Positions 40,340 to 55,392 are shown, counted from the stretch's first letter. The stretch: 59,708 nt of DNA from an uncultured Muribaculaceae bacterium (GCA_964428195.1 CAYRXC010000002.1:1-59708), one strand, 5' to 3'. The notes: generated by a model from the sequence alone, not told the origin. Translations and numbers: made by a program.

Positions 40340-40413
40340 GCCGAATTAGTTTAATGGTAAAACAAGTGAATCGTAATCATTTGATGCGAGTTCGATTCTT
40401 GCATTCGGCACCA
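40340..40413 (+). tRNA. tRNA-Thr (anticodon CGU), 74 nt with encoded CCA
   Basis: A manual cloverleaf fits: acceptor GCCGAAT/ATTCGGC; D stem GTTT/AAAC; anticodon stem AGTGA/TCATT with loop A-T-CGT-A-A (anticodon 40372-40374); T arm GCGAG-TTCGATT-CTTGC; discriminator A followed by CCA. Confidence 0.8.
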
Positions 40414-40446
40414 ATTTTTAAAAATAATACAAATAATAGTTTTTTT

Positions 40447-40455
40447 TGATATAAT
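40447..40455 (+). promoter_or_regulatory. Extended -10 promoter element (TGaTATAAT)
   Basis: Lies 31 nt upstream of the 40486 ATG. The RBS is AGGAGG. Confidence 0.4.
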
Positions 40456-40485
40456 ATATAACATAGAGTAATAGGAGGTGAATTT

Positions 40486-41691
40486 ATGAATCCAATAGTT
40501 GCGAATGATGAAATGCTTACTATTAAAGAGAGCATTGATAAAGTTCACCAAGAATTAACTAATAAGATGAATGAGATTAATACCAACTTTGACACAGTGG
40601 CATCAAGTTGGAGTAGCTCAAAATCTAAAGTAGTGTTATTGCCTATTGAAGATATAAAAAAGGAAAACACTAGAATACTAGAAAAAATAAAAGAAAAGTC
40701 AGATCAAATAAAAAGTGCGTATGATACCTATCTTAAGGCTCAAGATACTACTATAGTTCAAGTTATAGCATCCCCAAAAGAAGCTGAAAGCGTAGTTCCT
40801 GAGCAAACAGTAGTTCAAAATCCTAATTTAACAAACGAAGAAAAACTACAAGATTTGAAAGCAAGCGGAGAGACAATAGTACCTAGTTTTGAGATGTTGG
40901 AATTTGTTAGAAATAAAGATGGATCTTTTAAAAGACATGGCAACACGGACCTATATCCTGCAAAGATTACTGTCGATGGAAAAACGATTACTTATTTATT
41001 GTATTTAGGAGGAAGAGCTCCGGATGAGCAAATTCCAAAAGATCTTCCAGTATTGATGGCCCTTCATGGAAGTGGAGAAACAAGATCAAATTACAGTTCG
41101 AATTATAGTTCTTCTGAAGCAAGCAGGTCAATAAAAAATACCTTTGGCGGAAACTTTGGAGATCCAAATAATAAAAAAGAAGTAATTGCAATTCTTCCAC
41201 AATTTAGTAAAGGAACATATTATAGAGAAGATACAATGAATGTACTTCATACCCTTTATACAAGAGTAAAAGAATCATATGGGACAAGAGCTGGTTTAGA
41301 TATAAGCGGGTTAAGTATGGGAGGACAGTCGACAATCAAGTATGCGTCAATGTATCCTCAAGATATTTCTACTGCTACAGTTATTGCTGCTGGACCACCA
41401 GAAGGGAATTTTTTACGTTTAGATGAACAGTCCTACGAAAATTTAAAAAAAGTAAAAATGGTTTTTGTTTGTGGCGACCAAGATTCCAAACAATATTCGA
41501 GATCTCTTAATTTGTTGGGGACATTAACTGGAAACTCCACTACAACATATACTATAAACAAAGGAGATCCAATAGATCCGATTTTGAATTCACATTATAA
41601 TAACGGTGGTATTGTTCATATTACTGTTTCTGGAGCGGGACATAACACATGGGATTTGGCATCTCCAGCTGTGGTTTCTAAATACAACTAA
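40486..41691 (+). CDS. Candidate T7SS substrate: N-terminal WXG100/LXG-like helical hairpin fused to an alpha/beta-hydrolase (esterase/lipase-type) domain
   Basis: The N-terminal ~90 aa form a helix-turn-helix with a central SSWSSS turn. The C-terminal domain has LPVLMALHGSGE, the nucleophile elbow GLSMGG, VCGDQDS and GAGHNTW (Ser-Asp-His). There is no signal peptide. It lies directly upstream of essC. Confidence 0.55.
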   Translation: MNPIVANDEMLTIKESIDKVHQELTNKMNEINTNFDTVASSWSSSKSKVVLLPIEDIKKENTRILEKIKEKSDQIKSAYDTYLKAQDTTIVQVIASPKEAESVVPEQTVVQNPNLTNEEKLQDLKASGETIVPSFEMLEFVRNKDGSFKRHGNTDLYPAKITVDGKTITYLLYLGGRAPDEQIPKDLPVLMALHGSGETRSNYSSNYSSSEASRSIKNTFGGNFGDPNNKKEVIAILPQFSKGTYYREDTMNVLHTLYTRVKESYGTRAGLDISGLSMGGQSTIKYASMYPQDISTATVIAAGPPEGNFLRLDEQSYENLKKVKMVFVCGDQDSKQYSRSLNLLGTLTGNSTTTYTINKGDPIDPILNSHYNNGGIVHITVSGAGHNTWDLASPAVVSKYN

Positions 41692-41718
41692 AATTAATTG
41701 CATATGTTTATAAAAGAA

Positions 41719-41727
41719 TGATATAAT
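41719..41727 (+). promoter_or_regulatory. Extended -10 promoter element (TGaTATAAT) upstream of essC
   Basis: Lies 39 nt upstream of the GTG start at 41766. Confidence 0.4.
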
Positions 41728-41765
41728 TAAATAGAATAAAAGGGTTGTTTAAGGATGTGATATAA

Positions 41766-44700
41766 GTGCAATTATTATTGATAAAAAAGGATAAAATAGA
41801 TACTATTAAATTGCCCTCGAATATTTTCGGAAGTTATTGGATTGTTGACAGAATAAGTTCTAAAAAAGGGAACAATCTTATTAACGTATTTGAAGAAAAC
41901 GGAAGATGGAAAATAGTAAGCAATACAGATACAAAAATAATAGAAAGTAGCGGAAACGTAGTAGATTTTGCTTTTTTAACTGAGTATAGTTTTTATTACA
42001 TTCAAACAAAAGAAAAAACAATTTATATATTATATTCTTGTCCTGTTTATGACAAAAGTACTATTAGATTGACTTTTAATAATTTGACTGAGATTAACAT
42101 TGGAAATGAGATGACCAATGAAATTGTTTATAATTTGCAAGTTGTGGGTAAAAAAAACACAAGACTTGTATTTAAGGACAACGTTTGGAAGGTTTATGAT
42201 TTAGAAAGTAAATTTGGAACATACTTGAACAATTTATCAATTAGAGAAGCAACACTTAACAATGGAGACACAATATTTATTATGGGTTTAAAAATTATAT
42301 TATTGGGGAACAGCTTGTTAATAAATAATCCGTTTAATTCTGTATCATATAATCAAAATATTTTTTCTTTGTCAAATCAAGAAGAAGATGACTACATTGA
42401 AACCGAAGATGATGATAACCTAATTGAGTTGTATAAGGAAGAAGACTATTTTTTAAGATCTCCAAGATTTAAAACAATGATTGAAAAAGAAGTTTTGATA
42501 ATAGATCCTCCTCCAACAAAAGAAAACGCCGAGGAAATGCCAATAATGTATGTAATTGGTCCTATGCTATCGATGAGTATGATGTCATTAATGACTGTTT
42601 TTACTTCATTGAATAGATACTTATCTGGAGAAGCTGAGTTTAAAACGGTATTGCCTTCGTTAATCGTTGCTTTTGCAATGATGTTGAGTATGATATTATG
42701 GCCATTGTTAAATAAAAGATATCAAAAAAAGAAAAAACAAGAATATGAAAAAGATAGGCAAAAAAAGTACGGCGGATATATAGATTCAAGAAGAGAACAA
42801 TTAGAAATTATATCTAAAAAGCAAAAGATGATATTAATAGATAATTATTTGCCTTCTGCTGCTTGTGAAAACATTATTCTAAGCAAAAATAGACAATTAT
42901 GGGAAAGAAAAATAGATCAACCCGATTTCTTAGCTACAAGACTTGGAATAGGAAATACTCCTTTAGAAATTGATATTAGATATCCTGAAACACATTTTTC
43001 AATGGATGAGGATAATTTAAAGGATGAATTGAATAGAATGGTTAATGTTTCAAAAGAACTTAAAGATGTTCCGATAAGTATATCTTTTGTTGAAAAAAAC
43101 TATTCTGCAATAATTGGAAAAAGACACATAACAAACCATTTTATGAAGGAAATTCTATTACAATTTGTGAGTTTTCATAGTTATGAAGATTTAAAGTTAG
43201 TATTTTTATTAGATGAAGATTACGAAGAAGAATGGGAGTATGTAAAAACTATACCTCATATTTGGTCTGACGACAAAACAATTAGATATTTTGCAGTTGA
43301 TTATGAAGAAATGAAAGAACTATCTTCTTTAATGGAAAGTGACTTGCAAAATAGACTAACTTCTGAAGGTTCTTCATCAAGAGACTATAAATCTTTTTAC
43401 CCATATTATGTAATAATAACAAATAATTACAAGGTAACAAAAAACATTAAAATATTATCAGATGTATTGAAACAAAAAACAAATTATGGTTATAGTGTCA
43501 TTGTTATAAATGAAACACTATCTAATCTACCAAATGAGTGTACTACTTTTATTAGTATTGATAGCAATAAGGGAGGAGTTTTCGAAAGCGAATTAATTTC
43601 TACAAATCAGAAAGAATTCTTTCTAGACAAATCACCACTTGCAAATTTAAAGAGTAGCTTTTTTGTGGCAGCAAATACGCCAATAAAGCTTTCTAAAGAA
43701 ATGTACTCACTACCTAAAGTTTTTACTTTTTTAGAAATGTTTGAAGTTGGAAAGGTTGAGCAATTAAACTCTTTATATAGATGGAAGACAAACAACTCAA
43801 TTTTATCACTTCAAACTCCTATAGGAATCGATAGCCATGGAATGATTTCAAGGCTTGATGTTCATGAAAAAGCACATGGTCCGCATGGTCTTATTGCTGG
43901 TATGACTGGTTCTGGGAAAAGTGAATTGATAATTTCATACATAGTATCTCTTGCGGTTAACTATCACCCAGATGATGTATCGTTTGTTTTAATAGATTAT
44001 AAAGGTGGATTTTTGGTTGGAGCTTTACAAAATAATGAAACTGGAATTAAACTTCCACACCTAGCAGGTTCTATAACAAACTTGGACACTATTGAAATGA
44101 AAAGATCTTTGCTATCTATTCAAAGTGAACTAAAAAGAAGACAAAGACTATTTAATGAAGTTAGAGAAGAATTGAACGAAAGTACAATGGACATATATAA
44201 ATATCAAAAACTATATCACGAAGGGTTAATTAAGGAACCTATTCCTCACTTGTTAATTATATCTGATGAGTTTGCTGAGTTAAAAACTCAACAATCTGAG
44301 TTCATGGAGCAATTGATTAGCACGGCCCGTATTGGTAGAAGTTTAGGAGTTCACTTAATATTAGCTACACAAAAACCTTCGGGTGTCGTAAACGATCAAA
44401 TTTGGAGTAATAGTAGATTTAAGATATGTTTAAAGGTTCAAGAAAAGTCTGATAGTATGGATGTAATTAAATCTCCAGATGCTGCAAGTTTAACTCATGT
44501 TGGAAGGTATTATTTACAAGTTGGATATAATGAATATTTCTCGATGGGACAGTCAGCGTGGACAGGGGCACAATACATTCCGTCTGATAAAATAATAAAA
44601 GAAGTCGACACTTCTGTTGATTTTGTAAATAACATTGGAATTATAGTAAAAGAAGTAGAAGAACAAAAGAAAAATCAAAAATCTTCTGAGGGAGAACAAT

Positions 44701-46376
44701 TGACTTCAATTGTTAAATATTTGTCTGATTTAGCCAAAAAAGAGAATATTAAAATTAATCAATTGTGGTTAGATAGAATTCCCGAAAAAATATATGTTGA
44801 TAAATTAGCTCAAAAATACAATTATAAAGCTGAAAAAGGAATAATTAATCCAATAATTGGAGAATACGATGATCCTTACAATCAAAGCCAAGGACTATTG
44901 ACATTACCTATTACTGTTGATGGAAATACAATAATATATGGGTCAGCCGATAGCGGAAAAGAATTATTACTTAATAGTTTAATATTTTCAACGATAACGG
45001 AACACACCGTTGAAGAAGTAAATTTTTATATATTAGATTTTGGAACAGAATCACTTAGAATTTTTTCGGAAGCCCCACACGTAGGGGATGTATTATTTGA
45101 AGACAATAATGAAAAAATAATAAATTTATTTAAGACAATTAGAAAAGAAATTACAAATAGGAAGAAATTATTTGCTGATTATTATGGAGATTATCAATAC
45201 TATATACAAAATAGTGGAAAACAAATACCTACCATAATAATAATAATTAATAATTTTGAAACTTTTTCGGAAATTTACACTGCATTTGAAGAAGAGATTC
45301 TTCAATTAACTAGAGAAGGATTAAAATATGGTATAACATTCATATTTACCGTAACAACTTCAAATGCAATAAGATATAAATTAGCAAAAAATTTCAGACA
45401 AAAATTATGCTTACAGCTTAATGACGATAATGATTATTCAAATATTTTTGACAGAGTTAAAGATAAACTCCCTTCAAAAATATATGGAAGAGGTTTGGTG
45501 GAATTATCTACATTGCATGAATTCCAAACGTCATTTGTAAAAGATGTTGAAAACATTAATGATTACATAATAAGCAAGTGCAAGGAGTTAAAAGCAAGTA
45601 GTAAAACATTTGCAAAGAAAGTAATGATATTGCCAGAAAGAGTTACAATGGCAATGATTGCATCAGAAATAAAGGGAATAGATTCACTTCCTTTTGGTAT
45701 AGAAAAAGAAAGTTTGGATATTGCGAAATTTAATTTTGGTTCAAACACAGCAAATCTAATTGTTTCTCAAGATTATGCATCTTCTTCAAAATTTTTAAAT
45801 TCGTTTATAGCTTCATTGCATTTGCAAAATAGTTTCGATGTAATAATACTAGATAATGACGAACTTATTAACAATAAGAATATCCAAGGATTTAATTATT
45901 ATGGTTCTGATTCAAACAAATATTTTGATGAGATGAAGCCTATTATTGAACAACAATATGAAGAATATAAGACAAACAACTTTAGCAAAAAAGTGCTTGA
46001 AAAATATAAGACAAAACTAACAGTAGTTATAGGCTTGGAAAAATTTAAAACAAGATTGGAAGAAGCTAAACAAAAGGAACTTGATGCTTTCTTTAGTAAA
46101 ACACAAGAAATGCAAAAACACGTGTATATATTTGTTGATAATGTTGACAAATTGAAGAAATTAGAATACGATAATTGGTATAGGAGTATGATAGTTAGTA
46201 ACCAAGGAATTTGGTTAGGAAATGGAATTGCTGATCAATTTGCATTAAAACTTGTTAAGGTAGGAAAAGAACTATATCAAGAAATTGGAAATGATTTTGG
46301 ATATTTAGTTATTAGAGGTGTGCCAACACTTGTAAAACTCATTGATGATGAAGAAGGATATGGTGATATTTTATGA
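41766..46376 (+). CDS. essC: Type VII secretion FtsK/SpoIIIE-family ATPase EssC
   Basis: N-terminal FHA-like modules (FGTYLNNLSIREATLNNGDTIFIMGLKI) and two TMs (MYVIGPMLSMSMMSLMTVF; LPSLIVAFAMMLSMILWPL). The D1 ATPase has GLIAGMTGSGKSELI, LLIISDEFAEL, GVHLILATQKPSGVV and RFKICLKV. D2 has a degenerate P-loop, GSADSGKELL. D3 has no P-loop. Confidence 0.9.
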   Translation: MQLLLIKKDKIDTIKLPSNIFGSYWIVDRISSKKGNNLINVFEENGRWKIVSNTDTKIIESSGNVVDFAFLTEYSFYYIQTKEKTIYILYSCPVYDKSTIRLTFNNLTEINIGNEMTNEIVYNLQVVGKKNTRLVFKDNVWKVYDLESKFGTYLNNLSIREATLNNGDTIFIMGLKIILLGNSLLINNPFNSVSYNQNIFSLSNQEEDDYIETEDDDNLIELYKEEDYFLRSPRFKTMIEKEVLIIDPPPTKENAEEMPIMYVIGPMLSMSMMSLMTVFTSLNRYLSGEAEFKTVLPSLIVAFAMMLSMILWPLLNKRYQKKKKQEYEKDRQKKYGGYIDSRREQLEIISKKQKMILIDNYLPSAACENIILSKNRQLWERKIDQPDFLATRLGIGNTPLEIDIRYPETHFSMDEDNLKDELNRMVNVSKELKDVPISISFVEKNYSAIIGKRHITNHFMKEILLQFVSFHSYEDLKLVFLLDEDYEEEWEYVKTIPHIWSDDKTIRYFAVDYEEMKELSSLMESDLQNRLTSEGSSSRDYKSFYPYYVIITNNYKVTKNIKILSDVLKQKTNYGYSVIVINETLSNLPNECTTFISIDSNKGGVFESELISTNQKEFFLDKSPLANLKSSFFVAANTPIKLSKEMYSLPKVFTFLEMFEVGKVEQLNSLYRWKTNNSILSLQTPIGIDSHGMISRLDVHEKAHGPHGLIAGMTGSGKSELIISYIVSLAVNYHPDDVSFVLIDYKGGFLVGALQNNETGIKLPHLAGSITNLDTIEMKRSLLSIQSELKRRQRLFNEVREELNESTMDIYKYQKLYHEGLIKEPIPHLLIISDEFAELKTQQSEFMEQLISTARIGRSLGVHLILATQKPSGVVNDQIWSNSRFKICLKVQEKSDSMDVIKSPDAASLTHVGRYYLQVGYNEYFSMGQSAWTGAQYIPSDKIIKEVDTSVDFVNNIGIIVKEVEEQKKNQKSSEGEQLTSIVKYLSDLAKKENIKINQLWLDRIPEKIYVDKLAQKYNYKAEKGIINPIIGEYDDPYNQSQGLLTLPITVDGNTIIYGSADSGKELLLNSLIFSTITEHTVEEVNFYILDFGTESLRIFSEAPHVGDVLFEDNNEKIINLFKTIRKEITNRKKLFADYYGDYQYYIQNSGKQIPTIIIIINNFETFSEIYTAFEEEILQLTREGLKYGITFIFTVTTSNAIRYKLAKNFRQKLCLQLNDDNDYSNIFDRVKDKLPSKIYGRGLVELSTLHEFQTSFVKDVENINDYIISKCKELKASSKTFAKKVMILPERVTMAMIASEIKGIDSLPFGIEKESLDIAKFNFGSNTANLIVSQDYASSSKFLNSFIASLHLQNSFDVIILDNDELINNKNIQGFNYYGSDSNKYFDEMKPIIEQQYEEYKTNNFSKKVLEKYKTKLTVVIGLEKFKTRLEEAKQKELDAFFSKTQEMQKHVYIFVDNVDKLKKLEYDNWYRSMIVSNQGIWLGNGIADQFALKLVKVGKELYQEIGNDFGYLVIRGVPTLVKLIDDEEGYGDIL

Positions 46377-46621: not shown

Positions 46622-46637
46622 TAAGGAGGTGAAAAAT

Positions 46638-46937: not shown

Positions 46938-46973
46938 TTAACTAATTTATTTTTTAAAAAAGGAGGAAAATTC

Positions 46974-47249: not shown

Positions 47250-47275
47250 GTCTCTATTTATAGAGACTCTTTCTA
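47249..47275 (+). terminator. Rho-independent terminator (weak T tract)
   Basis: 8-bp stem GGTCTCTA-TTTA-TAGAGACT followed by CTTTCT. Confidence 0.5.
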
Positions 47276-47361
47276 ATTGTTTGTCTTATTTTACAAATAA
47301 TTAGAAATAGTTTTTATATAGAAGTGTATAATAATTAGCGATTATTGAAAGAGTGGTGTGA

Positions 47362-50300
47362 ATGAAAAAGGGATTGTTGAAGGTAAATTTCGAGAGCGTT
47401 AAAAGTTATTCAGCCAATTTGAACTCTGTTTCAAACGAAGTAACTAACAGCTATAAGGCTCCATCGGGAATGCAAATTGTAACACAGGGGCTAGTGCCTA
47501 CTTATTTTGATAAATTAAATCAATTTGTAGAAAAGCATGGTAATTATATTATGGAATTATCAAAAGCTATTGATGTATATCATGGTGAGTTAACTGCAAT
47601 AGAAGGATATTCAACACAAGAGACAGCTCAAGAACCTGCCTCAGAAGAACCGGTAGTTGGAGGAGGATCTCCTCATGGCGGAAATCATAATCCGTCTTTT
47701 GAGCCAGAGCTTACGGAAATTGAAGTATCTCCTGGAATAGAAGTAAATTTAGATTTTGGTAGTCTTCCTATAAATGCATCTATGGATCAAATTATGGGAA
47801 TAATTGCCGCTTATATAGCACAATTTGGACTAACTTTACCAGATTTGTTTTCAGGTAATTACGAGCACCTATTGTCTCAAATAATAGGATATTCACCTAA
47901 TACACCAACATTGTTAGCAATACTTACTCAATTGAATGAATTATTAATGCAAGCATATTTAAAAGGAATGATGAATAATCCTGGTGCACCTCAAATGTTC
48001 CAACCAATCAAATCATTCTTGAGATATTTTGCTCAATTTTTAGATGTTGATTTAAACAAATTAATGATAGATCCTCAATATGCTTTGGCTATTAAAATGG
48101 CACTACAAGACCATAGAACATCTTTAATTAATCTAAATAATATAAATCAAGAGACTGCTCTTGAGGTTCAAAGCAAATTGAATGATATGATTTATGGTGA
48201 TGGCAAAGGAAATTATAATAAGCATGGTGTAGATGATGTAACAATAAATATGTTAAAAGACTATCTGGCTTCTGTTGCTAAGAAAAATAATATTTCTTTA
48301 GAAAGCCTATTAGGAGAGGAAAAATATGCTAACATTGCCAAAACTGCTTTAGATGAATTTCTTAAATTTGCGTTACTAGGAAAAACAGAAGGACTAGCTT
48401 TTGCAGGAATACCGGAAGACGCAGAAAACTTAGGACCTGAAGAAGAAGAAAAAGTAGTTATCCCTGATAGTGAATTTAAAGAATCGGGATACAGTGTTCT
48501 TTCCGCTGATGCAAACACAGATCAAGTCAATAGTACCCTTGATGCATTGCTAGAAAAATACGGGTTAACTTTAGAAGAATTGTATTCTGGAGAACACAAT
48601 GATGTTTTAAATCAAGTACTTAACAATGCTTCTCACACAACAACATTTATAGTAACTGCAAATCAACTTGATGATTTAAATCTTCAAGCTTATTTAAATG
48701 GATTAAATAATGGTGATTCTGTACCGAAACATTTTGTATCTGTTGAATCATACTTATCTTATTTGGCAAAAACAGAAGGAGTATCTGTTGAAGAGTTATT
48801 AACTGATCCAAAGTACTCTGCTTTAGTAAAAGACTCTTTATATCAATATAGAGAATCATTAATATCGTTGAACAATTTATCTGAAAAAGACTCTGTTTCG
48901 ATTCAACAATCAATCAATCAATTCTTATTAAGTGATGATAAGAGCAATTATAATATAGATGGTGCTACTGATAAAATGCTTGAAGAATATTTAAGATCAG
49001 TTGCTGAAAAAAACAATATATCACTTGAAGATATGCTTACTCAAGAAAAATATGCTGATTTGACAAAAGAATCTCTTAAAGAGTTTATGAATTTTTCTTT
49101 GAATGGAGAAGAAAGTGATTTACCAGTTGCTAACATTGTTGAGCAAATAACTGAAATAGCTACCGAAAATAACACAACTCCGGAACAAATTTTAAATGGA
49201 GAAAATAATGAAGCATTAACTGAAGTAATTACATCAACTGAAAATCCTGCTGAAGTTGCTGAAGTTATAAACAATGTAGATGAAAATGCATTACAAAATT
49301 ATGTAAATGAAATAGTTAATGAAGGTAAGCATCCAGAAGTAAATAACAATCCTGTTATTAAGGAAGTAATTAGGACAATAGTTGTAAATAAGGAATACAT
49401 TAAAGGAAATACAAATGAAATAATAATTCCAGAAGTTGAAGAACCAAAACTAACTGAAGAACCAATTGTTATTGAAGAACTACCAAAAGAAGAATTAAAA
49501 GAAATCTTAACTAATGAAAATTATGCTCCTCAAATAAAAGAGGTTGTAAATAAAACTAATTCCTTTAACTGGGCTAGTTTATTCCCATTAGCAGGATTAG
49601 GTTTAATTCCTTTAATTGCAGTGGTTAGAAAAAAAAATAAAGAAAATCCTCAAAGAGAATCTTATGTATTCTCAGATGAAGAAACAAAACCTATTGTTGA
49701 CTCAAATTTTAAGTATTTTGCTGAATCAAATATAGTTACAGAGGAATCATTATTGGATGGTTCAAATTCCGAACTATTATCCATATATTTAAGTCAATTA
49801 GAAAGTTTGAGCGCAGTCTTGAATGTTTTATCCATAATGAAAGATCAACATCTTCAAAAATATTTATTTGAATTGTATAATTTTAAATACGAGCATGTAT
49901 GGAGCAGTAAATCATTAATTATAAAGATATTATTTAATGATTTAACTAATATTGCTTTTAAACAAGGCATAGAAATCAATACATTGTTATCTAATTCAAA
50001 TTATGTTGTTTGGGTTAAAACATCGATTGTAGATATTATGAAGGCATATTCAAAATACGAAGGGGACATAAACTCTAGCGGAGGGTTTAAGCTATTTTTA
50101 AATAGTGTTTTGGGTAAATCAATATTAGTAAACGAAGCAAATTTAAATGTATTAAAAATGTTTTTCGAATTAAATGCTAAAAAAGCAAATCTTGATTTTG
50201 ATTCATTTGTAAATCAATTATCAGAATATGATAATAAATTAATTATCTTTGCAATCATTAGATATGGAGAAGGAAGTAAACCTTACTCTTTTGGGTTTTT

Positions 50301-52311
50301 AGATTCTTTAAATGATGATTCTTCAAATTCTTCAGATGGAGGATTTATACCAAAAGAAACTGGAAAAGAAAGAATATTTGATGAATCTGGATATAATGCT
50401 TTATTATTTAATTCAAGTGAAGAACTAATCGAAAAAGCATTAGCTGCTATTGCAAAAAATTATAATACTAGTGTGAAAGATTTATACACAATAAGCAATG
50501 AAAACATTTTTACTTTATTATTAAATAAGTCAACCAACTTAATTTTAACTTTATATCTATTATTAAAATTAGATTCTGATAGACTTCAAAAATACTTACA
50601 TGCATTATATACAAAATCTACTGAAAATAAGTTTTTATTGATTGTACTAAAATATTTAGAGTATTTAGCTAAATCCGAGAATACAACGCTTAATGCTTTG
50701 TTGACAAAAGGAGAATATGCTAAATTGATAATTGAATCATTAGCAGATTTCAAAAAATCAGTGACTAGCATTATTTCTTTAGCTAAAAAGGATGGAACAA
50801 CTCTAAACGAAGAAATTAATGATTTGTTTTTTATGGAAGATACTAGTAAATATGAAATAGATAAAATATCTATTGAATTGATAAAAGGTATGTTGTCTAG
50901 TTTGGGTAAAGCAAAAAATATTGGATTAAATGCATTATTAGATATAAAAAATATTTCTTTATTAAAAGAGCTAATGGAAAAGATTGTAAATACTCTACTT
51001 TTTATAAAGGAAACAAATAATGAAAATTCTAATGAAGAAAAAAAATTAACACCATTAAACCTTAGAGCTATGGATGAAAAAAAATCTTCTGAAACAAAAA
51101 ACAACGTAGATATAAGCAAATTAGTAGATGGAAGCAATTATGATTTATTAAATAAATACTTTGATGAAACAGATGATATATTTAAAATAATAGATGTCTT
51201 ATTATCAATGGATGAAATCATTATGCAAAAGTATCTTAATGAGTTAAACAAAAAATCGACAAAAAATAAATTCTTGTTGTATATTTTAAAGTTGCTTCAA
51301 AATTATGCGTTAACTGAAGCTACAACAATAGAATATGTTTTATCAAATGCAGTATATGCATCAAAATTGAAAGTGTTAATTTCTGAGTTTTCAAAATCAA
51401 TAAAGAATTTTGAAGCATTATCTAAGATAGATGCATCAGAATTGAGTAAAGAGATGAATACTTTGATGAACATAGATGATACTTCTTCTTATGGGATAGA
51501 TAAAGTCACATTGAATTTAATAAAAGAGTTATTAACTAATTCTACAAAGACTGATAATCTTGATTTGAATTCATTGAGTGATCCAAAGAATGCCAACGTA
51601 TTGAAAAAGTTAATGCAAAAGATTATTAATGATATTACAACATCTTTAACATTTAATACAAAAAAAGTTGATTTTTCAAAAAATAATTTTAATAAAGATG
51701 AAGTGGTGAATGCGCTTAGAGAGGCATTTGGAAATTCTAATTATTCAAATTCTCCATTGTTAAGTAAGATAAAAAGCTACTTTGAAATAATGATAAGTGA
51801 ATCAGGAATTAGTTTTGAAGAATATATTTTTGGACAAGAGTTTTCGAATTTTATTAAGATTAACTTTGAAAATACAAATATTATGTCATTTATTTATGAA
51901 TACATGGAATCAAATATAGATTATGATTTTGATGTTAACAAAAAAATTATTGACTTGGCAGTAAAAAACAATTTGAAGTATGATGAATTGAGGTCAAAAG
52001 GTGGATTAAGCTTTGTTGTACAAAGTATTTTAAAAGAAAATAATATTATTTATTCTTTAGAAACTTTGGTTACTTTTGAGAAAGATAATATTTCTGAAGC
52101 ATTGTTAGAGTTAAATTCAATAAAAGAAAATACAAATATAAATAATTTGTTTGATTACATTGATAAAAACTTGAAAAAACCAAGTAGTTTACCTATAGAA
52201 GAATATATTAATGAAAACAAGAAAACAATACTATTGTTCTTGGTTAAGGTATTGTTAATGCTTCTAATTCTGTTACTATTGATGAATAAAGAAGAAAAAG
52301 AGGTGAAGTAA
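47362..52311 (+). CDS. 1649-aa T7SS-locus protein: WXG/LXG-like N-terminus, five to six ~180-aa helical repeat modules, one internal and one C-terminal TM helix
   Basis: The N-terminal ~85 aa form a helical hairpin (LLKVNFESVKSY...). The internal TM is WASLFPLAGLGLIPLIAVV followed by RKKNK (49570-49641). The C-terminal TM is ILLFLVKVLLMLLILLLLM followed by NKEEKEVK (about 52225-52308). No family is recognised. Confidence 0.7.
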   Translation: MKKGLLKVNFESVKSYSANLNSVSNEVTNSYKAPSGMQIVTQGLVPTYFDKLNQFVEKHGNYIMELSKAIDVYHGELTAIEGYSTQETAQEPASEEPVVGGGSPHGGNHNPSFEPELTEIEVSPGIEVNLDFGSLPINASMDQIMGIIAAYIAQFGLTLPDLFSGNYEHLLSQIIGYSPNTPTLLAILTQLNELLMQAYLKGMMNNPGAPQMFQPIKSFLRYFAQFLDVDLNKLMIDPQYALAIKMALQDHRTSLINLNNINQETALEVQSKLNDMIYGDGKGNYNKHGVDDVTINMLKDYLASVAKKNNISLESLLGEEKYANIAKTALDEFLKFALLGKTEGLAFAGIPEDAENLGPEEEEKVVIPDSEFKESGYSVLSADANTDQVNSTLDALLEKYGLTLEELYSGEHNDVLNQVLNNASHTTTFIVTANQLDDLNLQAYLNGLNNGDSVPKHFVSVESYLSYLAKTEGVSVEELLTDPKYSALVKDSLYQYRESLISLNNLSEKDSVSIQQSINQFLLSDDKSNYNIDGATDKMLEEYLRSVAEKNNISLEDMLTQEKYADLTKESLKEFMNFSLNGEESDLPVANIVEQITEIATENNTTPEQILNGENNEALTEVITSTENPAEVAEVINNVDENALQNYVNEIVNEGKHPEVNNNPVIKEVIRTIVVNKEYIKGNTNEIIIPEVEEPKLTEEPIVIEELPKEELKEILTNENYAPQIKEVVNKTNSFNWASLFPLAGLGLIPLIAVVRKKNKENPQRESYVFSDEETKPIVDSNFKYFAESNIVTEESLLDGSNSELLSIYLSQLESLSAVLNVLSIMKDQHLQKYLFELYNFKYEHVWSSKSLIIKILFNDLTNIAFKQGIEINTLLSNSNYVVWVKTSIVDIMKAYSKYEGDINSSGGFKLFLNSVLGKSILVNEANLNVLKMFFELNAKKANLDFDSFVNQLSEYDNKLIIFAIIRYGEGSKPYSFGFLDSLNDDSSNSSDGGFIPKETGKERIFDESGYNALLFNSSEELIEKALAAIAKNYNTSVKDLYTISNENIFTLLLNKSTNLILTLYLLLKLDSDRLQKYLHALYTKSTENKFLLIVLKYLEYLAKSENTTLNALLTKGEYAKLIIESLADFKKSVTSIISLAKKDGTTLNEEINDLFFMEDTSKYEIDKISIELIKGMLSSLGKAKNIGLNALLDIKNISLLKELMEKIVNTLLFIKETNNENSNEEKKLTPLNLRAMDEKKSSETKNNVDISKLVDGSNYDLLNKYFDETDDIFKIIDVLLSMDEIIMQKYLNELNKKSTKNKFLLYILKLLQNYALTEATTIEYVLSNAVYASKLKVLISEFSKSIKNFEALSKIDASELSKEMNTLMNIDDTSSYGIDKVTLNLIKELLTNSTKTDNLDLNSLSDPKNANVLKKLMQKIINDITTSLTFNTKKVDFSKNNFNKDEVVNALREAFGNSNYSNSPLLSKIKSYFEIMISESGISFEEYIFGQEFSNFIKINFENTNIMSFIYEYMESNIDYDFDVNKKIIDLAVKNNLKYDELRSKGGLSFVVQSILKENNIIYSLETLVTFEKDNISEALLELNSIKENTNINNLFDYIDKNLKKPSSLPIEEYINENKKTILLFLVKVLLMLLILLLLMNKEEKEVK
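47830..49095 (+). repeat. Protein-level repeat modules R1 (47830-48369) and R2 (48565-49095) of the giant protein
   Basis: The modules are colinear. Matching blocks: LTLPDLFSGNYEHLL / LTLEELYSGEHNDVL; QAYLKGMMN / QAYLNGLNN; DLNKLMIDPQYALAIK / SVEELLTDPKYSALVK; SLINLNN / SLISLNN; MLKDYLASVAKKNNISLESLLGEEKYANIAKTALDEFLKF / MLEEYLRSVAEKNNISLEDMLTQEKYADLTKESLKEFMNF. Confidence 0.8.
49728..51636 (+). repeat. Protein-level repeat modules R3-R5 (post-TM half) of the giant protein
   Basis: R4 (about 50464-50995) and R5 (about 51106-51636) are colinear. Matching blocks: LQKYLHALYTKSTENKFLLIVLKYL / MQKYLNELNKKSTKNKFLLYILKLL; TTLNALLTKGEYAKL / TTIEYVLSNAVYASKL; DTSKYEIDKISIELIKGML / DTSSYGIDKVTLNLIKELL. 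R3 (about 49728-50280) is more divergent (LQKYLFELYNFKYEH...). Confidence 0.7.
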
Positions 52312-52620
52312 ATGGAAAATTTAAGTTGTGATTTTGAAATAATTAATGATGCTTTAGTTTCATTAATCAATTCAGCAAATGCTGTAGTAGAGCAAGCAAC
52401 AGTTTTAAAAGGTATTGTAGAATCAGTTGATTTGGGTTGGATTGACAAGATTGAAGGGTCTGCTGATTTATATAAAAATGAAACACTATTGATTATCAAT
52501 GATTTGGCTGTAAATTTAGAATCTTCAAATACTCTGATTAAAAGTATTCAACAATCTATGGATTTGTATAAAGAAAATGAAGCTGCGGGTGTTACTAGTA
52601 TTAACAACGTAAGTTTGTAA
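52312..52620 (+). CDS. WXG100-like small helical protein (turn = DLGWIDKIEG)
   Basis: 102 aa helical hairpin. The ATG directly abuts the stop of the giant gene (TAAATG). Confidence 0.5.
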   Translation: MENLSCDFEIINDALVSLINSANAVVEQATVLKGIVESVDLGWIDKIEGSADLYKNETLLIINDLAVNLESSNTLIKSIQQSMDLYKENEAAGVTSINNVSL

Positions 52621-52631
52621 GGAGGATTTTT

Positions 52632-54065
52632 ATGAACGGTGCCGAATATGATAAATATTTAAACGCAATTAAAGGAACTAACTTTTCTGCTTTAAAAACT
52701 TTGATTAGTAACATTGAACAAGTAGAAACAAATGTAGTAAATAATTTGAATAAAGAAATTGAATGGGAAGGTGATGTTCGAGAAGCATTAAGAGCTAAAA
52801 TAGACTCTGTACTTCCTTCTTTTAGAAGTTTTAAGACTAATGAAACTGCTAATATAAACAACATTATTGATTTATCTACAGAATTGATGAACAAGATATT
52901 AGAATACAAAAAATTATTTTCTGAAATTACGAGTTTAAATAATGATTTGAATAGAGCAAAAGCAAATGCAGAAACTATCGAAGTTGAATTTTCCGGAAGA
53001 GGCGGAAAAATTGATGATTCTAGTGCAACTTCGAGCGAAAGATTTACAACAAAAAGGCAAAAAAGCAATGCGGAAATTAATAGGATTCAATCTCAAATTA
53101 ATAGCAAAACAAAAATGATTGGTGACACAAAAATTGAAATAGAGTCATTAATTACTAAATTAAAAAGCGTAGAATTTGGAACATTATTTGTTAATAGTAC
53201 TGTTGCATCTACGGCAAGTTCTTCTTCAGAAACAGTTATTGCAGATGTATCTTTAGATGGATATAAACTTGATGCAACTTTACTTACAAGTATACCAGCC
53301 AGCGAATATGATAATTATTTTAGAAATTCTTTAGAAAAACCTATTCAGAATAATATAAATTATTTATCTATGACTTTACATAATTTAAATGATCAAAGAC
53401 ATTTGGCTTCTATTGTTTTAACAAATATGCCTGGAACGACTGACCCAAATCAATTGGTTGCAATAGATATGGCAAGACTAGCGCATTCAAGATTAACTCA
53501 ACAAATTGAGGATACAGAGAAGTCACTTGAGCAACATCAAAAATTACTTGATGATTATAAAGCGGCAAATAAATCAAAGTTTTGGGCATGGGAAAGCCAT
53601 GGTGAAATTAAAAATCTTGCACTTGAAAGAGATGCAGCTACGAGCCCAGAGGAGAAAGCTGAATATAATAGGAAAATATCCGAAGCTGTCGAAAGATTTA
53701 ATAGTGGAATTGATAGTTCAAATTTAATTCCAATAGGAGATGTAGCTTTACCTTTTATGGCAAGTTCCTTAGAAGGTCAAAACATTCTTGGACCAGAGGT
53801 TGGTTATTCTGAAGCAAGTAAAGAAACAGAAGTATTAAGTTTATTTACAGAAAGCTTATATAATTCTCCTAGATCAGATACTGAAATGATTCCTACATAT
53901 AATGATAAACAAGAAATAACAGGATATACTATAATCGATCAAAGACTTGAGAGTATTGGTCAAGAATATAAATTAAACAAGACAGATACGGGATATGATT
54001 TAGTTATAGGTGGAAAAGAACCTTTACATTATGATTTACCTCAACTTGAAAATAGTAATAATTAA
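52632..54065 (+). CDS. LXG/WXG-like N-terminal domain protein with unassigned C-terminal region (candidate T7SS substrate/effector)
   Basis: A WXG motif is present (EIEWEGDVREALRAKI) within an N-terminal helical domain, followed by coiled coil. The C-terminal ~230 aa are unrecognised. No TM and no signal peptide. The RBS is AAGGAGG. Confidence 0.5.
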   Translation: MNGAEYDKYLNAIKGTNFSALKTLISNIEQVETNVVNNLNKEIEWEGDVREALRAKIDSVLPSFRSFKTNETANINNIIDLSTELMNKILEYKKLFSEITSLNNDLNRAKANAETIEVEFSGRGGKIDDSSATSSERFTTKRQKSNAEINRIQSQINSKTKMIGDTKIEIESLITKLKSVEFGTLFVNSTVASTASSSSETVIADVSLDGYKLDATLLTSIPASEYDNYFRNSLEKPIQNNINYLSMTLHNLNDQRHLASIVLTNMPGTTDPNQLVAIDMARLAHSRLTQQIEDTEKSLEQHQKLLDDYKAANKSKFWAWESHGEIKNLALERDAATSPEEKAEYNRKISEAVERFNSGIDSSNLIPIGDVALPFMASSLEGQNILGPEVGYSEASKETEVLSLFTESLYNSPRSDTEMIPTYNDKQEITGYTIIDQRLESIGQEYKLNKTDTGYDLVIGGKEPLHYDLPQLENSNN

Positions 54066-54072
54066 TAATATA

Positions 54073-54106
54073 AAAGTTCTTATTATATATGAGAACTTTT
54101 TTTCTT
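54073..54106 (+). terminator. Rho-independent terminator
   Basis: AAAGTTCT / AGAACTTT stem (11-nt loop) followed by TTTTCTT. Confidence 0.55.
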
Positions 54107-54112
54107 GAAAAA

Positions 54113-54121
54113 TGATATAAA
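54113..54121 (+). promoter_or_regulatory. Extended -10-like element (TGaTATAAA)
   Basis: Lies 35 nt upstream of the 54156 ATG. The RBS is AGGAGG. Confidence 0.35.
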
Positions 54122-54155
54122 TTATGATAGTATTAACATAGGAGGATAGTGTGAT

Positions 54156-54824
54156 ATGACAAAAATAATGGATTATTTGGTTGATAATTATATTTATGTT
54201 GCAGCTATATCGGGTTTTTTAATTATCGTTCTTATTGGATTTTTAGTGAAAACTAATAAATCAAAGAAAACCAATAAATCTGCAAAAGAAAAATCAAAAG
54301 AATTAGAAATTGAAAACAAAAATGATGAAAATCAAAATGTACAAGAAAAAAATACAAGTAAAGATTTTGAAATTACACCTAATGGAGTTGATTCTGGATT
54401 TATAAAAAATGAAGAAGAAAATATAATTCCAGAAATAAATAGTGTTGTTGAAGAAGCAACAAATTCAATGGAGTCTGAAACAAAAACAAATGTAGATGTT
54501 TCTGTTGAAGAAATTAATATTATTCCTGAAATAGAAAATCTTTCTCAGGAAAAGTCAAATTCTGAGAATAATAATCAAGAAAATGATGTTAGCTTATACA
54601 ACGAGTCCATAGTTGAACCATCAAATCAAAAATTTCAAGTAGTACTAGATGATGAGGTTAGTGAGCCAACAGTCAAGGAAGCTGAAAAATTCGATCTAGA
54701 TGACACAATTTCTCTAAATAAAAGCTTGCTTGATGATACTGTTGATATTGTTGATTTTTCTGAACTTAATAAATTTGAACCAAATGATGAAGTACCAAAT
54801 TCAATTAGTAATAACAACCAATAA
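54156..54824 (+). CDS. Single-pass membrane protein with long acidic, N/E/S-rich tail
   Basis: N-terminal TM YIYVAAISGFLIIVLIGFLV, followed by KTNKSKKTNKSAKEK and a low-complexity acidic region. A short motif occurs twice: NIIPEINS and NIIPEIEN. Confidence 0.5.
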   Translation: MTKIMDYLVDNYIYVAAISGFLIIVLIGFLVKTNKSKKTNKSAKEKSKELEIENKNDENQNVQEKNTSKDFEITPNGVDSGFIKNEEENIIPEINSVVEEATNSMESETKTNVDVSVEEINIIPEIENLSQEKSNSENNNQENDVSLYNESIVEPSNQKFQVVLDDEVSEPTVKEAEKFDLDDTISLNKSLLDDTVDIVDFSELNKFEPNDEVPNSISNNNQ

Positions 54825-55391: not shown

Positions 55392-55392
55392 T

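What the first reader, a model, noticed from the sequence alone, without database searches (positions are those of the whole stretch)
40340..54824. Stripped-down type VIIb-like secretion locus: EssC + YukD-like + six WXG/LXG-like modules, with no recognisable EsaA, EssA or EssB
**Seen in the sequence**
- A ~14.5-kb block lies between tRNA-Thr and the rplM promoter.
- It encodes a clear EssC: FHA-like N-terminus, 2 TM, one intact and two degenerate FtsK/SpoIIIE ATPase domains.
- A ubiquitin-fold YukD/EsaB-like gene is coupled to EssC.
- Three ~90-100-aa helical-hairpin proteins follow (46638, 46974, 52312).
- Three larger proteins have N-termini with the same hairpin character (40486, 47362, 52632).

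**Established knowledge**
- Characterised Bacillota T7SSb machines (S. aureus Ess, B. subtilis Yuk) also require the membrane proteins EssB/YukC (pseudokinase fold plus 1 TM), EsaA/YueB (~1000 aa, 6 TM) and EssA/YueC.

**Inference**
- None of the remaining ORFs has those architectures.
- The only membrane proteins in the locus are the 1649-aa repeat protein (2 TM) and a 222-aa acidic single-pass protein.
- Either this lineage runs a minimal or rewired T7SS in which these novel proteins replace the canonical membrane components, or the missing parts are encoded elsewhere.
Basis: partly seen in the sequence, partly recalled or inferred. Interest (0 to 1): 0.85.

Follow-up and report, generated by a model that had tools for sequence, protein, structure and literature searches.

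The report
Pared-down type VII secretion locus
An uncultured low-GC gut bacterium carries a compact type VII protein-secretion gene cluster that keeps only the motor ATPase, its small ubiquitin-like partner and the usual small helical proteins, and pairs them with an undescribed family of helical-repeat cargo proteins. Secretion systems lacking the classic membrane parts were already described in 2024, so this is a new variant, not a new kind.

Summary
Window 40486-54824 encodes EssC (TIGR03928, 1010 bits), a translationally coupled YukD-family protein, two WXG100-like proteins and three larger proteins with WXG/LXG-like N-termini. No EssB, EsaA or EssA was detected by profile or fold search.

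T7SS variants without EssA/EssB/EsaA are already published (T7SSc-j; Garrett, Higginson and Palmer 2024). This EssC sits in a clade of uncultured "Bacilli/Tenericutes" MAG loci, sister to T7SSe-like loci. That clade has also lost the T7SSe kinase, phosphatase, FHA protein and Ig-like protein. It has lost the phosphothreonine-binding residues of the EssC FHA domain as well.

The 1649-aa and 477-aa proteins look like substrates, not replacement machine parts. They have WXG-like N-termini, no match to EssB or EsaA structures, and diverge much faster than EssC. The 1649-aa protein belongs to an undescribed repeat family (89 cluster representatives). In all eight other loci with upstream sequence, that family lies directly after essC-yukD.

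The 222-aa single-pass protein follows an intrinsic terminator, so its membership is uncertain. Whether missing parts lie elsewhere in the genome could not be tested.

The parts
40340..40413 (+). tRNA-Thr (CGU); upstream boundary of the locus
   Evidence: ARAGORN and Rfam RF00005 at 66 bits.
40486..41691 (+). 401-aa candidate effector: WXG100-like N-terminal ~90 aa followed by an alpha/beta-hydrolase (esterase-like) domain carrying HGSGE, GLSMGG and GAGH motifs
   Evidence: Pfam WXG100 E 0.0017 and weak Esterase/Hydrolase_4 hits. NCBIfam PHB-depolymerase-family esterase E 0.005. PDB ferulic acid esterase 7xrt E 0.04, aligned over the GLSMGG nucleophile elbow. hhalign to the WXG100 cluster gives 38-85%. 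Only 37% identical to its L004 orthologue.
41766..46376 (+). EssC/TsxC: two N-terminal FHA-like domains, two TM helices (~257-315), a pseudo-ATPase region and three FtsK/SpoIIIE domains (D1 intact, D2 and D3 degenerate)
   Evidence: TIGR03928 at 1010 bits; Pfam FtsK_SpoIIIE and FHA. Motifs. YukB 9qks E 9e-125. The second FHA domain lacks the GR...SxxH...NG phosphothreonine-binding residues that T7SSe-like relatives keep.
46373..46621 (+). 82-aa YukD/EsaB-family (TsxB) ubiquitin-fold protein; its start overlaps the essC stop
   Evidence: Homologues lie beside essC in 63 of 80 loci. 31 of 66 homologues match Pfam YukD. Weak PDB hits are to ubiquitin-like domains only. 84% identical to the L004 orthologue.
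46629..46937 (+). 102-aa (99 aa from ATG at 46638) WXG100-like helical hairpin, first of a non-identical pair
   Evidence: hhalign 93-95% to the WXG100 cluster. Pfam PE E 0.0013 and WXG100 E 0.035.
46974..47249 (+). 91-aa WXG100-like protein (FEG in place of WXG), second of the pair
   Evidence: Pfam WXG100 at 24.3 bits, just below the 27.3 cut-off. NCBIfam ESAT6_2 at 26 bits. hhalign 96%.
47249..47268 (+). Weak terminator-like hairpin directly after the WXG pair; a possible attenuator
   Evidence: Pattern scan. Fold -10.2 kcal/mol, z -2.3. The count of such sites in the region is not above chance.
47362..52311 (+). 1649-aa member of a new T7SS-linked helical-repeat ('REP') family. Layout: N-terminal two-helix hairpin (10-80), Pro/Gly/Glu-rich linker (80-128), about 225-aa all-alpha repeats (130-355, 372-600, 765-990, 1009-1221, 1222-1434), a conserved TM at 737-755 and a C-terminal TM at 1623-1641
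   Evidence: Internal repeats. TM segments, with TM1 invariant in three homologues. AF2 gives two confident globular helical domains with no PDB match. Only 3 close homologues among 5.8e9 proteins, but the repeat profile finds 89 cluster representatives. In all other loci with upstream DNA the family lies directly after essC-yukD.
52312..52620 (+). 102-aa small protein abutting the 1649-aa gene and preceding the 477-aa gene; possible Lap-like partner
   Evidence: Conserved in three lineages with invariant Trp43 and Asp45. No significant profile match (11-13%). Its role is inferred from position only.
52632..54065 (+). 477-aa LXG-like protein: long N-terminal helical hairpin with a WEG motif, disordered linker, helical domain 215-411 and small beta domain 417-468
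   Evidence: Four homologues only. Alignment with invariant VLTNMPGTTDP and VLSLFTESLYNSP motifs. AF2 mean pLDDT 76.6. hhalign of the N-terminus to WXG100 gives 72-90%. No PDB fold match (best E 0.08).
54072..54103 (+). Intrinsic-terminator-like hairpin (12-bp stem plus U7) ending the essC-477 gene run
   Evidence: Fold -11 kcal/mol, z -3.5. An IS30-type element is inserted exactly here in another sample.
54156..54824 (+). 222-aa single-pass protein: near-invariant N-terminal TM helix, Lys-rich juxtamembrane stretch, variable acidic linker and conserved C-terminal motif LDDxVDIVDFSELNKFE. Membership of the system is uncertain
   Evidence: TM segment. Four-lineage alignment. Kept between the 477-aa gene and rplM in all four lineages. 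No profile match to anything in related loci. It lies after the terminator.

Best explanation
The block is a functional, compact type VII secretion locus of a subtype not among the published T7SSa-j.

**Conserved machine (shown by homology)**
- EssC, a membrane FtsK-type ATPase.
- A translationally coupled YukD-family ubiquitin-fold protein.
- A non-identical pair of WXG100-like proteins.

**Mechanism (inferred from established T7SS knowledge)**
- EssC hexamerises and its two TM helices per protomer form or frame the channel.
- YukD docks on the first ATPase domain.
- Helical-hairpin dimers, namely the WXG pair and hairpin N-termini with their small partners, are recognised by the C-terminal ATPase domains and exported.

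**Likely cargo**
- The 1649-aa helical-repeat protein. It belongs to a new family that always travels with essC-yukD in this clade and is here enlarged and membrane-anchored.
- The 401-aa WXG-esterase fusion.
- The 477-aa LXG-like protein, probably with the 102-aa protein as partner.

**Evolution**
- The lineage descends from a T7SSe-like ancestor or sister.
- It has lost the kinase, phosphatase and FHA-protein control module and the Ig-like wall-spanning protein.
- In step with that, the EssC FHA domain has lost its phosphothreonine-binding residues.

**Open point**
- The 222-aa single-pass protein may be a small membrane subunit like TseH/TseK, or merely a neighbouring gene.
For: **Core identification**
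- EssC.
- YukD family.
- WXG pair.

**Conservation**
- The gene order essC-yukD-WXG-WXG-1650-102-470-220-rplM is kept in four diverged lineages (window, L004, L084, L085), each contig covering part of the run.
- All ORFs are intact in the window.
- Core proteins are 82-84% identical between window and L004. The accessory proteins are 37-63% identical.

**Phylogeny and gene content**
- The window EssC sits in a clade from uncultured 'Bacilli/Tenericutes' MAGs.
- The window and 28 other loci in that clade lack the kinase, PP2C, DUF6382-FHA and Big_2 clusters.
- Those clusters mark the sister T7SSe-like clade.
- HMMs of those clusters find nothing in any window ORF.

**FHA motif co-variation**
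- The GR...SxxH...SxNGT motif is kept in the T7SSe-like clade and lost in the window (GN...GKKN...SKFGT).

**No canonical T7SSb parts near essC in the clade**
- All ten membrane-protein candidates turned out to be MMPL, PBP, pseudopilins, M23 peptidase, glycine-zipper, CotH or PGA_cap proteins, or to have no hit.

**Substrate-like nature of the large proteins**
- WXG-like N-termini.
- No fold match to EssB or EsaA.

**REP family linkage**
- Found directly after essC-yukD in all 8 other loci with upstream DNA.
- The EssC proteins tested from two of those loci are 54-55% identical to the window EssC.

**Literature**
- T7SS variants whose component sets do not include EssA/EssB/EsaA are established (PMC11217815).
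Against: - No experiment exists and the organism is uncultured.
- The rest of the genome was not searchable, so extra components encoded elsewhere are not excluded.
- The WXG pair scores below Pfam and NCBIfam trusted cut-offs.
- The 52312 protein and the hairpin of the 1649-aa protein are not supported by their own sequences.
- Two TM helices in the 1649-aa protein, with the same repeat on both sides of TM1, are hard to reconcile with a simple secreted substrate. It might be a structural envelope component after all.
- The EssC tree is a neighbour-joining tree without support values and without reference TsxC sequences from the published subtypes. 'Sister to T7SSe' rests on gene content, not on named references.
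- Related loci were retrieved by similarity to this EssC, which biases the sample.
Confidence: 0.68

Rival explanations
1. The novel membrane proteins are machine parts. The 1649-aa repeat protein, membrane-anchored with a large helical ectodomain, would take the place of EsaA/TseI as an envelope-spanning component. The 222-aa single-pass protein would take the place of EssA/TseH/TseK.
For: - The REP family is the only non-core family shared by the window lineage and its sister lineage, and it always sits inside the essC-yukD operon.
- The window-type members have conserved TM helices; TM1 is invariant.
- TsdI of T7SSd is a large protein of similar size (1654 aa) with a C-terminal TM, proposed to act like EsaA (PMC11217815).
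- The TM helix of the 222-aa protein is nearly invariant and its tail is predicted cytoplasmic and disordered, like TsdH/TseH/TseK.
- The whole gene set is syntenic in four lineages, unlike typical variable effector islands.
Against: - Most REP family members listed are 350-600 aa, and the ~500-aa members read have no TM helix.
- The REP N-terminus resembles a T7 substrate targeting domain, not a Sec signal.
- The same repeat occurs on both sides of TM1.
- The REP protein is 51% identical where EssC is 82%.
- There is no structural similarity to EsaA.
- The 222-aa gene follows a strong terminator and has no homologue in the sister loci.
Confidence: 0.17
2. The locus is an ordinary T7SSb, or T7SSe, whose missing accessory genes (essA/essB/esaA, or the kinase, phosphatase, TseJ and TseI set) are encoded elsewhere in the genome.
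For: - Only 59.7 kb of the genome is visible, and no genome-wide search was possible.
- NCBIfam's EssC model for Firmicutes matches above its cut-off.
Against: - From established knowledge, the accessory genes of characterised T7SSb systems cluster with essC.
- No accessory gene appears within about 8-10 kb of essC in 28 loci of this clade or in 8 sister loci.
- The FHA domains do not align significantly with YukB; the best match starts at residue 299.
- The FHA domain has lost the phosphothreonine motif expected if a kinase still controlled it.
- Garrett et al. found no further orthologues of T7SSa or T7SSb components elsewhere in the genomes that encode T7SSc, the one subtype for which they report that check.
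Confidence: 0.1
3. The locus is a decaying or non-secretory remnant. EssC would be retained for another role, such as DNA translocation or conjugation, and the flanking ORFs would be unrelated surface proteins.
For: - D2 and D3 of EssC are degenerate.
- Many accessory ORFs have no family assignment.
Against: - Degenerate D2 and D3 are also the consensus of both related clades.
- All genes are intact, tightly packed and syntenic across four lineages. EssC and YukD are as conserved as ribosomal proteins L13 and S9.
- Essentially full-length EssC architecture, matching TIGR03928 over residues 227-1525 plus an N-terminal FHA domain.
- No conjugation or relaxase genes are present; the flanks are housekeeping genes.
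Confidence: 0.03

Closest known systems
T7SSe (TseA, A2, B, C, D, F, H, I, J, K) of Bacillota, defined by Garrett, Higginson and Palmer 2024 (PMC11217815)
   Same: - EssC with N-terminal FHA domains.
- A YukD-like TsxB immediately downstream.
- A non-identical pair of WXG100 proteins.
- No EssA, EssB or EsaA.
- The window EssC is 35-48% identical to EssCs of loci with the T7SSe gene set, and its clade is sister to them.
   Different: - No Ser/Thr kinase (TseD), PPM phosphatase (TseF), DUF6382-FHA protein (TseJ) or Ig-like Sec-exported TseI.
- The phosphothreonine-binding residues of the EssC FHA domain are lost.
- It carries a REP-family protein that T7SSe loci lack.
T7SSb (S. aureus Ess, B. 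subtilis Yuk)
   Same: - EssC architecture: TIGR03928 above its cut-off, and YukB is the best PDB hit.
- YukD/EsaB family protein.
- WXG100-like and LXG-like substrates with small helical partners.
- FHA domains without phosphothreonine-binding residues.
   Different: - No EssB/YukC, EsaA/YueB or EssA/YueC in the locus or in related loci.
- Two different WXG proteins instead of one EsxA.
- The FHA region is not alignable to YukB.
T7SSg (TsgA1, A2, B, C, L), the simplest published variant
   Same: A small core of two WXG100 proteins, a ubiquitin-like protein and the ATPase.
   Different: - TsgC lacks FHA domains, whereas this EssC has them.
- No DUF5050 beta-propeller (TsgL).
- No adjacent Tad pilus genes.
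Sister loci found here (L086-L094): essC-yukD-REP-WXG-WXG-LXG-like-DUF4176-WXG-WXG in gut and other metagenomes
   Same: - EssC 54-55% identical.
- Same YukD family.
- REP-family protein inside the operon.
- No kinase, phosphatase or Big_2 clusters.
   Different: - REP is only 455-530 aa, without TM helices, and precedes the WXG pair.
- The sister loci carry DUF4176 plus polymorphic LXG-like effectors, which the window lacks.
- The window's 401, 477, 102 and 222-aa proteins are absent from them.
PE/PPE-type substrates of mycobacterial T7SSa (functional analogy only)
   Same: - An N-terminal helical hairpin targeting domain, a low-complexity linker and a large repetitive C-terminal region, encoded next to small hairpin partners.
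- The 46629 protein has a weak Pfam PE hit (E 0.0013).
- PE25-PPE41 is among the weak fold matches of the 477-aa model.
   Different: - No sequence homology.
- A different phylum and a different T7SS type.
- The REP repeats are globular helical domains, not Gly-rich repeats.

Membership tests
Type VII secretion system (general) | Membrane-bound EccC/EssC FtsK-SpoIIIE ATPase with multiple NTPase domains | tested here: met
   TIGR03928 at 1010 bits (cut-off 778); FtsK_SpoIIIE at 138.8 bits; D1 Walker A and B intact.
Type VII secretion system (general) | WXG100-family helical-hairpin protein(s) encoded with the ATPase | tested here: inconclusive
   Both small proteins fall below the curated cut-offs (24.3 and 14.8 bits against 27.3). 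They match the WXG100 cluster of related loci at 93-96% hhalign probability.
Type VII secretion system (general) | YukD/EsaB ubiquitin-like protein (TsxB) | tested here: met
   Member of a family adjacent to essC in 63 of 80 loci. 31 of 66 members match PF08817. The window protein has no direct hit.
T7SSb | EssB/YukC (pseudokinase plus one TM) | tested here: not met
   No hit at E<=1 in any locus ORF. The 477-aa protein has no TM and no pseudokinase fold match. The rest of the genome was not testable.
T7SSb | EsaA/YueB (~1000 aa, polytopic, long extracellular domain) | tested here: not met
   No profile hit. The 1649-aa protein has 2 TMs, a different architecture and no PDB fold match.
T7SSb | EssA/YueC small membrane protein | tested here: not met
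   No profile hit for the 222-aa protein or any other ORF. A functional analogy of the 222-aa protein cannot be excluded.
T7SSe | Membrane Ser/Thr kinase TseD and PPM phosphatase TseF | tested here: not met
   HMMs built from 31 kinase and 39 phosphatase sequences of related loci find nothing in any window ORF. Both are absent from the whole Bacilli clade.
T7SSe | TseJ (DUF6382 plus FHA) and Ig-like TseI | tested here: not met
   Cluster HMMs c10 and c3 find nothing in the window.
T7SSe | Conserved phosphothreonine-binding motif in the EssC FHA domain | tested here: not met
   The window has GN...GKKN...SKFGT where the T7SSe-like clade has GR...SxxH...SxNGT.
T7SSe | Single-TM proteins TseH and TseK with an unstructured cytoplasmic stretch | tested here: inconclusive
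   The 222-aa protein has that architecture. It shows no sequence relation to any cluster in T7SSe-like loci. No reference TseH or TseK sequences were at hand.
T7SSg | ATPase without FHA domains; DUF5050 beta-propeller TsgL; adjacent Tad genes | tested here: not met
   An FHA domain is present. No propeller or Tad genes appear among the locus ORFs.
LXG polymorphic toxin | Pfam LXG (PF04740) N-terminal domain with a variable C-terminal toxin and a cognate immunity gene | tested here: not met
   No LXG hit for the 477, 401 or 1649-aa proteins. The C-terminus of the 477-aa protein is more conserved than its N-terminus. These proteins are 'LXG-like' by shape only.

The most novel reading that the evidence does not exclude
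In this clade of uncultured, low-GC gut Bacilli, EssC plus YukD and a WXG pair would be a complete type VII translocon with no other dedicated membrane subunit. That would make it the simplest natural T7SS. Its main job would be to export and anchor a new class of giant helical-repeat surface proteins (the REP family) by their WXG-like N-termini. These proteins would do the envelope-spanning or contact work that EsaA or TseI do elsewhere.
Probability: 0.25. Interest if true: 0.8.

Novelty: new variant of a known kind. Interest (0 to 1): 0.5.

Why it matters
What forms the T7SS channel in Bacillota, and which accessory proteins are truly needed, is still unsettled. Natural systems pared down to EssC, YukD and WXG proteins are attractive minimal targets for structural and reconstitution work.

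The loss of the kinase, phosphatase and FHA-protein module together with the phosphothreonine-binding residues of EssC is comparative support for the published proposal that those modules regulate T7SSe-type systems through the EssC FHA domain.

The REP family is an unannotated protein family consistently wired into these operons. It extends the catalogue of T7SS-associated proteins in gut Bacillota, which RefSeq-based surveys may not have sampled.

The headline 'no EssA/EssB/EsaA' is no longer surprising after the 2024 survey.

Tried and rejected
- **Divergent EssB, EsaA or EssA.** Direct Pfam and NCBIfam scans of all nine ORFs gave nothing at E<=1. Foldseek against the PDB for the AF2 models of the 477-aa protein and of residues 1-760 of the 1649-aa protein gave no significant match.
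- **Remote homology to accessory genes of related loci.** phmmer and hhalign of the window families against 57 gene clusters from 80 essC loci matched only WXG100.
- **Kinase, phosphatase, TseJ, Big_2 or HerA anywhere in the 59.7-kb window.** None found.
- **Bulk scan of clade neighbours.** An NCBIfam scan of 138 neighbour-gene representatives was less useful than hoped. Only the 25 most frequent families are listed, so single hits cannot be excluded. I followed it with targeted scans of every membrane-protein candidate.
- **Orthology of the WXG pair.** Assigning the window's pair to the first or the second pair of the sister loci failed because scores were too weak.
- **477-aa protein versus the LXG-like proteins of sister loci.** No relation.
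- **Organism and cell wall.** I could not name the organism or decide whether it has peptidoglycan. No LPXTG proteins and no informative markers were found in the window.
- **Word-indexed homologue searches.** They returned only 3-4 relatives for the 1649-aa and 477-aa proteins. The exhaustive profile search was needed to find the REP family.
- **Mobile element or conjugation reading.** Rejected. The flanks are UvrAB, YchF, RNase R, SmpB-tmRNA, Tex and rplM-rpsI.

Full report
**1. What is in the sequence**

The interval between tRNA-Thr (40340-40413) and rplM-rpsI (54951-55812) holds nine tightly packed ORFs on the + strand. The window has about 28% G+C. Its flanks are chromosomal housekeeping genes: UvrB, UvrA, YchF, RNase R, tmRNA, Tex and a MacB-type ABC transporter.

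The exact EssC protein occurs only in contigs assembled from three sequencing runs (DRR784984, DRR784989, DRR784990). The organism has no name.

**2. The core**

- **EssC (41766-46376).**
  - It matches NCBIfam EssC (TIGR03928) at 1010 bits over the full length. It also matches Pfam FtsK_SpoIIIE and FHA.
  - D1 has intact Walker A and B motifs, D2 is degenerate and D3 has none.
  - B. subtilis YukB is the best solved relative, but only from residue 299 onward. The FHA region is not alignable.
- **YukD-like protein (82 aa).**
  - Its start overlaps the essC stop.
  - It has no Pfam hit of its own. It belongs to a family found beside essC in 63 of 80 related loci, and 31 of 66 members match Pfam YukD.
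- **WXG pair (102 and 91 aa).** Both fall just below curated WXG100 thresholds. They match the WXG100 cluster of related loci at 93-96% profile-profile probability.

One reservation applies. The third small protein (52312) and the N-terminus of the 1649-aa protein are not supported by their own sequences.

**3. The canonical parts are absent, but that is known biology**

No ORF matches EssB/YukC, EsaA/YueB or EssA. AF2 models also find no EssB or EsaA fold in the PDB:

| Model | Mean pLDDT | Best Foldseek E |
|---|---|---|
| 477-aa protein | 76.6 | 0.08 |
| 1649-aa protein, residues 1-760 | 67.6 | 2.2 |

Garrett, Higginson and Palmer (microLife 2024, PMC11217815) already described eight further T7SS arrangements (T7SSc-j).
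- They share only the ATPase, the WXG100 protein and usually the YukD-like protein.
- Many carry kinases, phosphatases and FHA proteins.
- Their listed component sets do not include EssA, EssB or EsaA.
- The survey used RefSeq. Its main text does not mention metagenomes or Erysipelotrichales-like lineages.

**4. Where this EssC belongs**

A scan of one genome per species returned 80 loci with related EssC. I called ORFs, clustered them and annotated cluster representatives.

A neighbour-joining tree of 76 full-length EssCs splits into two groups.
- **T7SSe-like group.** These loci are mostly from Clostridia. They carry the T7SSe gene set: two or three WXG100 proteins, a Big_2/Ig-like large protein, a DUF6382-Zn-ribbon-FHA protein, a PP2C phosphatase and a Ser/Thr kinase.
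- **Bacilli group.** These loci come from MAGs labelled uncultured Bacilli, Tenericutes, Mycoplasmatota or Erysipelotrichaceae. They have none of those genes.

The window EssC and its 82%-identical relative L004 lie in the Bacilli group.

HMMs of the T7SSe accessory clusters find nothing anywhere in the window.

The second FHA domain of EssC keeps the phosphothreonine-binding signature (GR...SxxH...SxNGT) throughout the T7SSe-like group. It has lost that signature in the window (GN...GKKN...SKFGT) and in most of the Bacilli group. Loss of the kinase and phosphatase module thus co-varies with decay of its presumed docking site.

All ten membrane-protein candidates near essC in the Bacilli group proved unrelated to T7SSb parts. 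They are MMPL, a D-Ala-D-Ala carboxypeptidase, pseudopilins, an M23 peptidase, glycine-zipper proteins, CotH and PGA_cap, or have no family hit.

**5. The accessory proteins**

Homologues of the 401, 102, 91, 1649, 102, 477 and 222-aa proteins were found only in three other contigs (L004, L084, L085). Each covers part of the run, and where they overlap they keep the same order up to rplM-rpsI.

Identity between the window and L004:

| Protein | Identity (%) |
|---|---|
| EssC | 82 |
| YukD | 84 |
| L13 | 82 |
| S9 | 90 |
| WXG pair | 63 and 52 |
| 1649 aa | 51 |
| 102 aa (52312) | 44 |
| 222 aa | 44 |
| 477 aa | 39 |
| 401 aa | 37 |

Fast divergence with strict synteny fits exported or surface-exposed proteins with a fixed role better than it fits machine subunits or swappable toxins.

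- **477-aa protein.**
  - It has a WEG motif at residues 45-47 and a long N-terminal hairpin (residues 3-178 in the model).
  - A disordered linker, a helical domain and a small beta domain follow. The C-terminal motifs are invariant.
  - Its N-terminus matches WXG100 at 72-90% probability.
- **401-aa protein.** It joins a WXG-like N-terminus to an alpha/beta-hydrolase with HGSGE, GLSMGG and GAGH motifs. It has weak esterase hits.

**6. The 1649-aa protein defines a new T7SS-linked family**

It contains five clear copies of an all-alpha module of about 225 aa. Two of these fold confidently in the model. It also has two TM helices, and the first is invariant among its three close homologues.

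Word-indexed search found only three close homologues. A profile of the five repeats, run against 1.84 billion cluster representatives, found 89 proteins at E<=1e-3 and 34 at E<=1e-10.

Most members listed are 350-600 aa, and none of the ten scanned has a Pfam family. Nearly all members read share one architecture:
- an N-terminal hairpin of about 85 aa;
- a Gly/Pro-rich linker;
- several helical repeats.

An HMM of the family's N-termini, searched against all 1357 ORFs of the essC loci, retrieved almost only WXG100 and other small T7SS-associated helical proteins.

Gene context was recovered for two members and for five metagenome loci. In all eight loci with upstream sequence the order is essC-yukD-REP-WXG-WXG. 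Where downstream sequence is available, an LXG-like polymorphic protein follows. Members of that protein family share only their first 200 residues or so. DUF4176 and a second WXG pair come next.

The EssC proteins of the two sister loci tested (L086, L089) are 54-55% identical to the window EssC. That makes them its nearest relatives outside its own lineage.

The REP family is thus the one non-core family shared by both lineages. In the window lineage it has grown threefold and acquired membrane anchors.

**7. The 222-aa protein**

- Its N-terminal TM helix is nearly invariant.
- The Lys-rich stretch after the helix predicts a cytoplasmic C-terminus.
- The acidic middle is variable, and a C-terminal motif is conserved.

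This is the architecture reported for TsdH, TseH and TseK, but no sequence relation was found.

The gene lies downstream of a strong terminator-like hairpin (54072-54103; -11 kcal/mol, z -3.5). In another sample an IS30-type element sits exactly there. Its membership is open.

**8. Mechanism**

- **Shown by homology:** the EssC, YukD and WXG core.
- **Inferred from established T7SS biology:** hexameric EssC provides the energy and probably the membrane conduit. YukD binds the first ATPase domain. Hairpin dimers are recognised by the C-terminal ATPase domains.
- **Inferred from anatomy:** the REP, 477-aa and 401-aa proteins are cargo targeted by their hairpin N-termini, with the small proteins as partners.
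- **Speculative:**
  - The positive-inside rule places residues 1-736 of the 1649-aa protein outside and 756-1622 inside the cell.
  - Export of that N-terminal region without a signal peptide would then require the T7SS.

**9. Verdict**

The locus is real and the description accurate. The absence of the T7SSb membrane set is genuine at locus and clade level, but it is already an established phenomenon. What is new:
- a T7SS gene arrangement not among the published a-j, pared down further than T7SSe;
- decay of the FHA phosphothreonine motif in step with loss of the regulatory module;
- an undescribed REP family wired into these operons.

I rate it a new variant of a known kind, of moderate interest. 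The main untested point is whether other components lie elsewhere in the genome.

Noticed in passing
window 54094 (compare L001 18364-19568): In the DRR784984 assembly the sequence is 99.995% identical to the window up to 54094. It then runs into an IS30-type transposase gene (HTH_38 plus rve). The insertion point is inside the terminator hairpin between the 477-aa and 222-aa genes, so this is a strain-level insertion polymorphism.
   Followed up: partly
L004, L020, L024, L029, L052 (record titles): Several MAG contigs carrying Bacillota-type essC loci are labelled Muribaculaceae, Bacteroides or Bacteroidaceae. L004 has rplM-rpsI 82-90% identical to the window. These look like mis-binned or mislabelled contigs.
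   Followed up: no
L017, L019, L023, L050, L008: Two full-length essC genes lie in tandem in one locus; in most of these loci each has its own yukD. They are separated by a conserved block of small WXG-like genes, a 566-582-aa protein with an N-terminal TM, and a DUF4176-MORN protein. The window EssC is closest to the second copy.
   Followed up: partly
L028 16602-18512, L041, L008, L050, L059: A 636-aa HerA/DUF87-type ATPase recurs within a few kb of essC in 'Tenericutes/Bacilli' MAG loci. It might be an accessory ATPase of those T7SS variants or an unrelated neighbour.
   Followed up: no
window 5975-10459: A 1494-aa ORF whose only family hit is an OmpL47-type beta-barrel domain (residues 1142-1191). 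It lies in a stretch of raised G+C (0.33-0.35 against about 0.28 elsewhere) and may be a large surface protein.
   Followed up: no
window 34565-36028 and 55923-57218: ORFs of 487 aa and 431 aa with no NCBIfam family and no PDB sequence relative. The first lies in a second patch of raised G+C (about 0.33).
   Followed up: partly
L076 8911-14614: In this 'uncultured Bacilli' MAG rplM-rpsI lie immediately upstream of essC. In the window lineage they lie immediately downstream of the locus. The T7SS locus neighbours the same ribosomal operon in two different arrangements.
   Followed up: no
window 36351-38174; L086 16027-20185: A fused MacB-type ABC transporter (ABC_tran, MacB_PCD and FtsX) sits two genes upstream of the window locus. 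A Peptidase_C39-like protein plus ABC ATPase and MacB/FtsX permease follow the sister T7SS locus L086. This may be coincidence or a recurrent neighbour.
   Followed up: no
window 31877-32218: tmRNA with the tag peptide GNRNESLAFA. smpB and RNase R probably lie just upstream.
   Followed up: no
L019 16068-19490, L023 16091-18268, L050 14995-17964: Large proteins downstream of the second essC carry glycine-zipper motifs or an M23 peptidase domain. They are plausible T7SS antibacterial effectors in those relatives, and nothing comparable is in the window.
   Followed up: no
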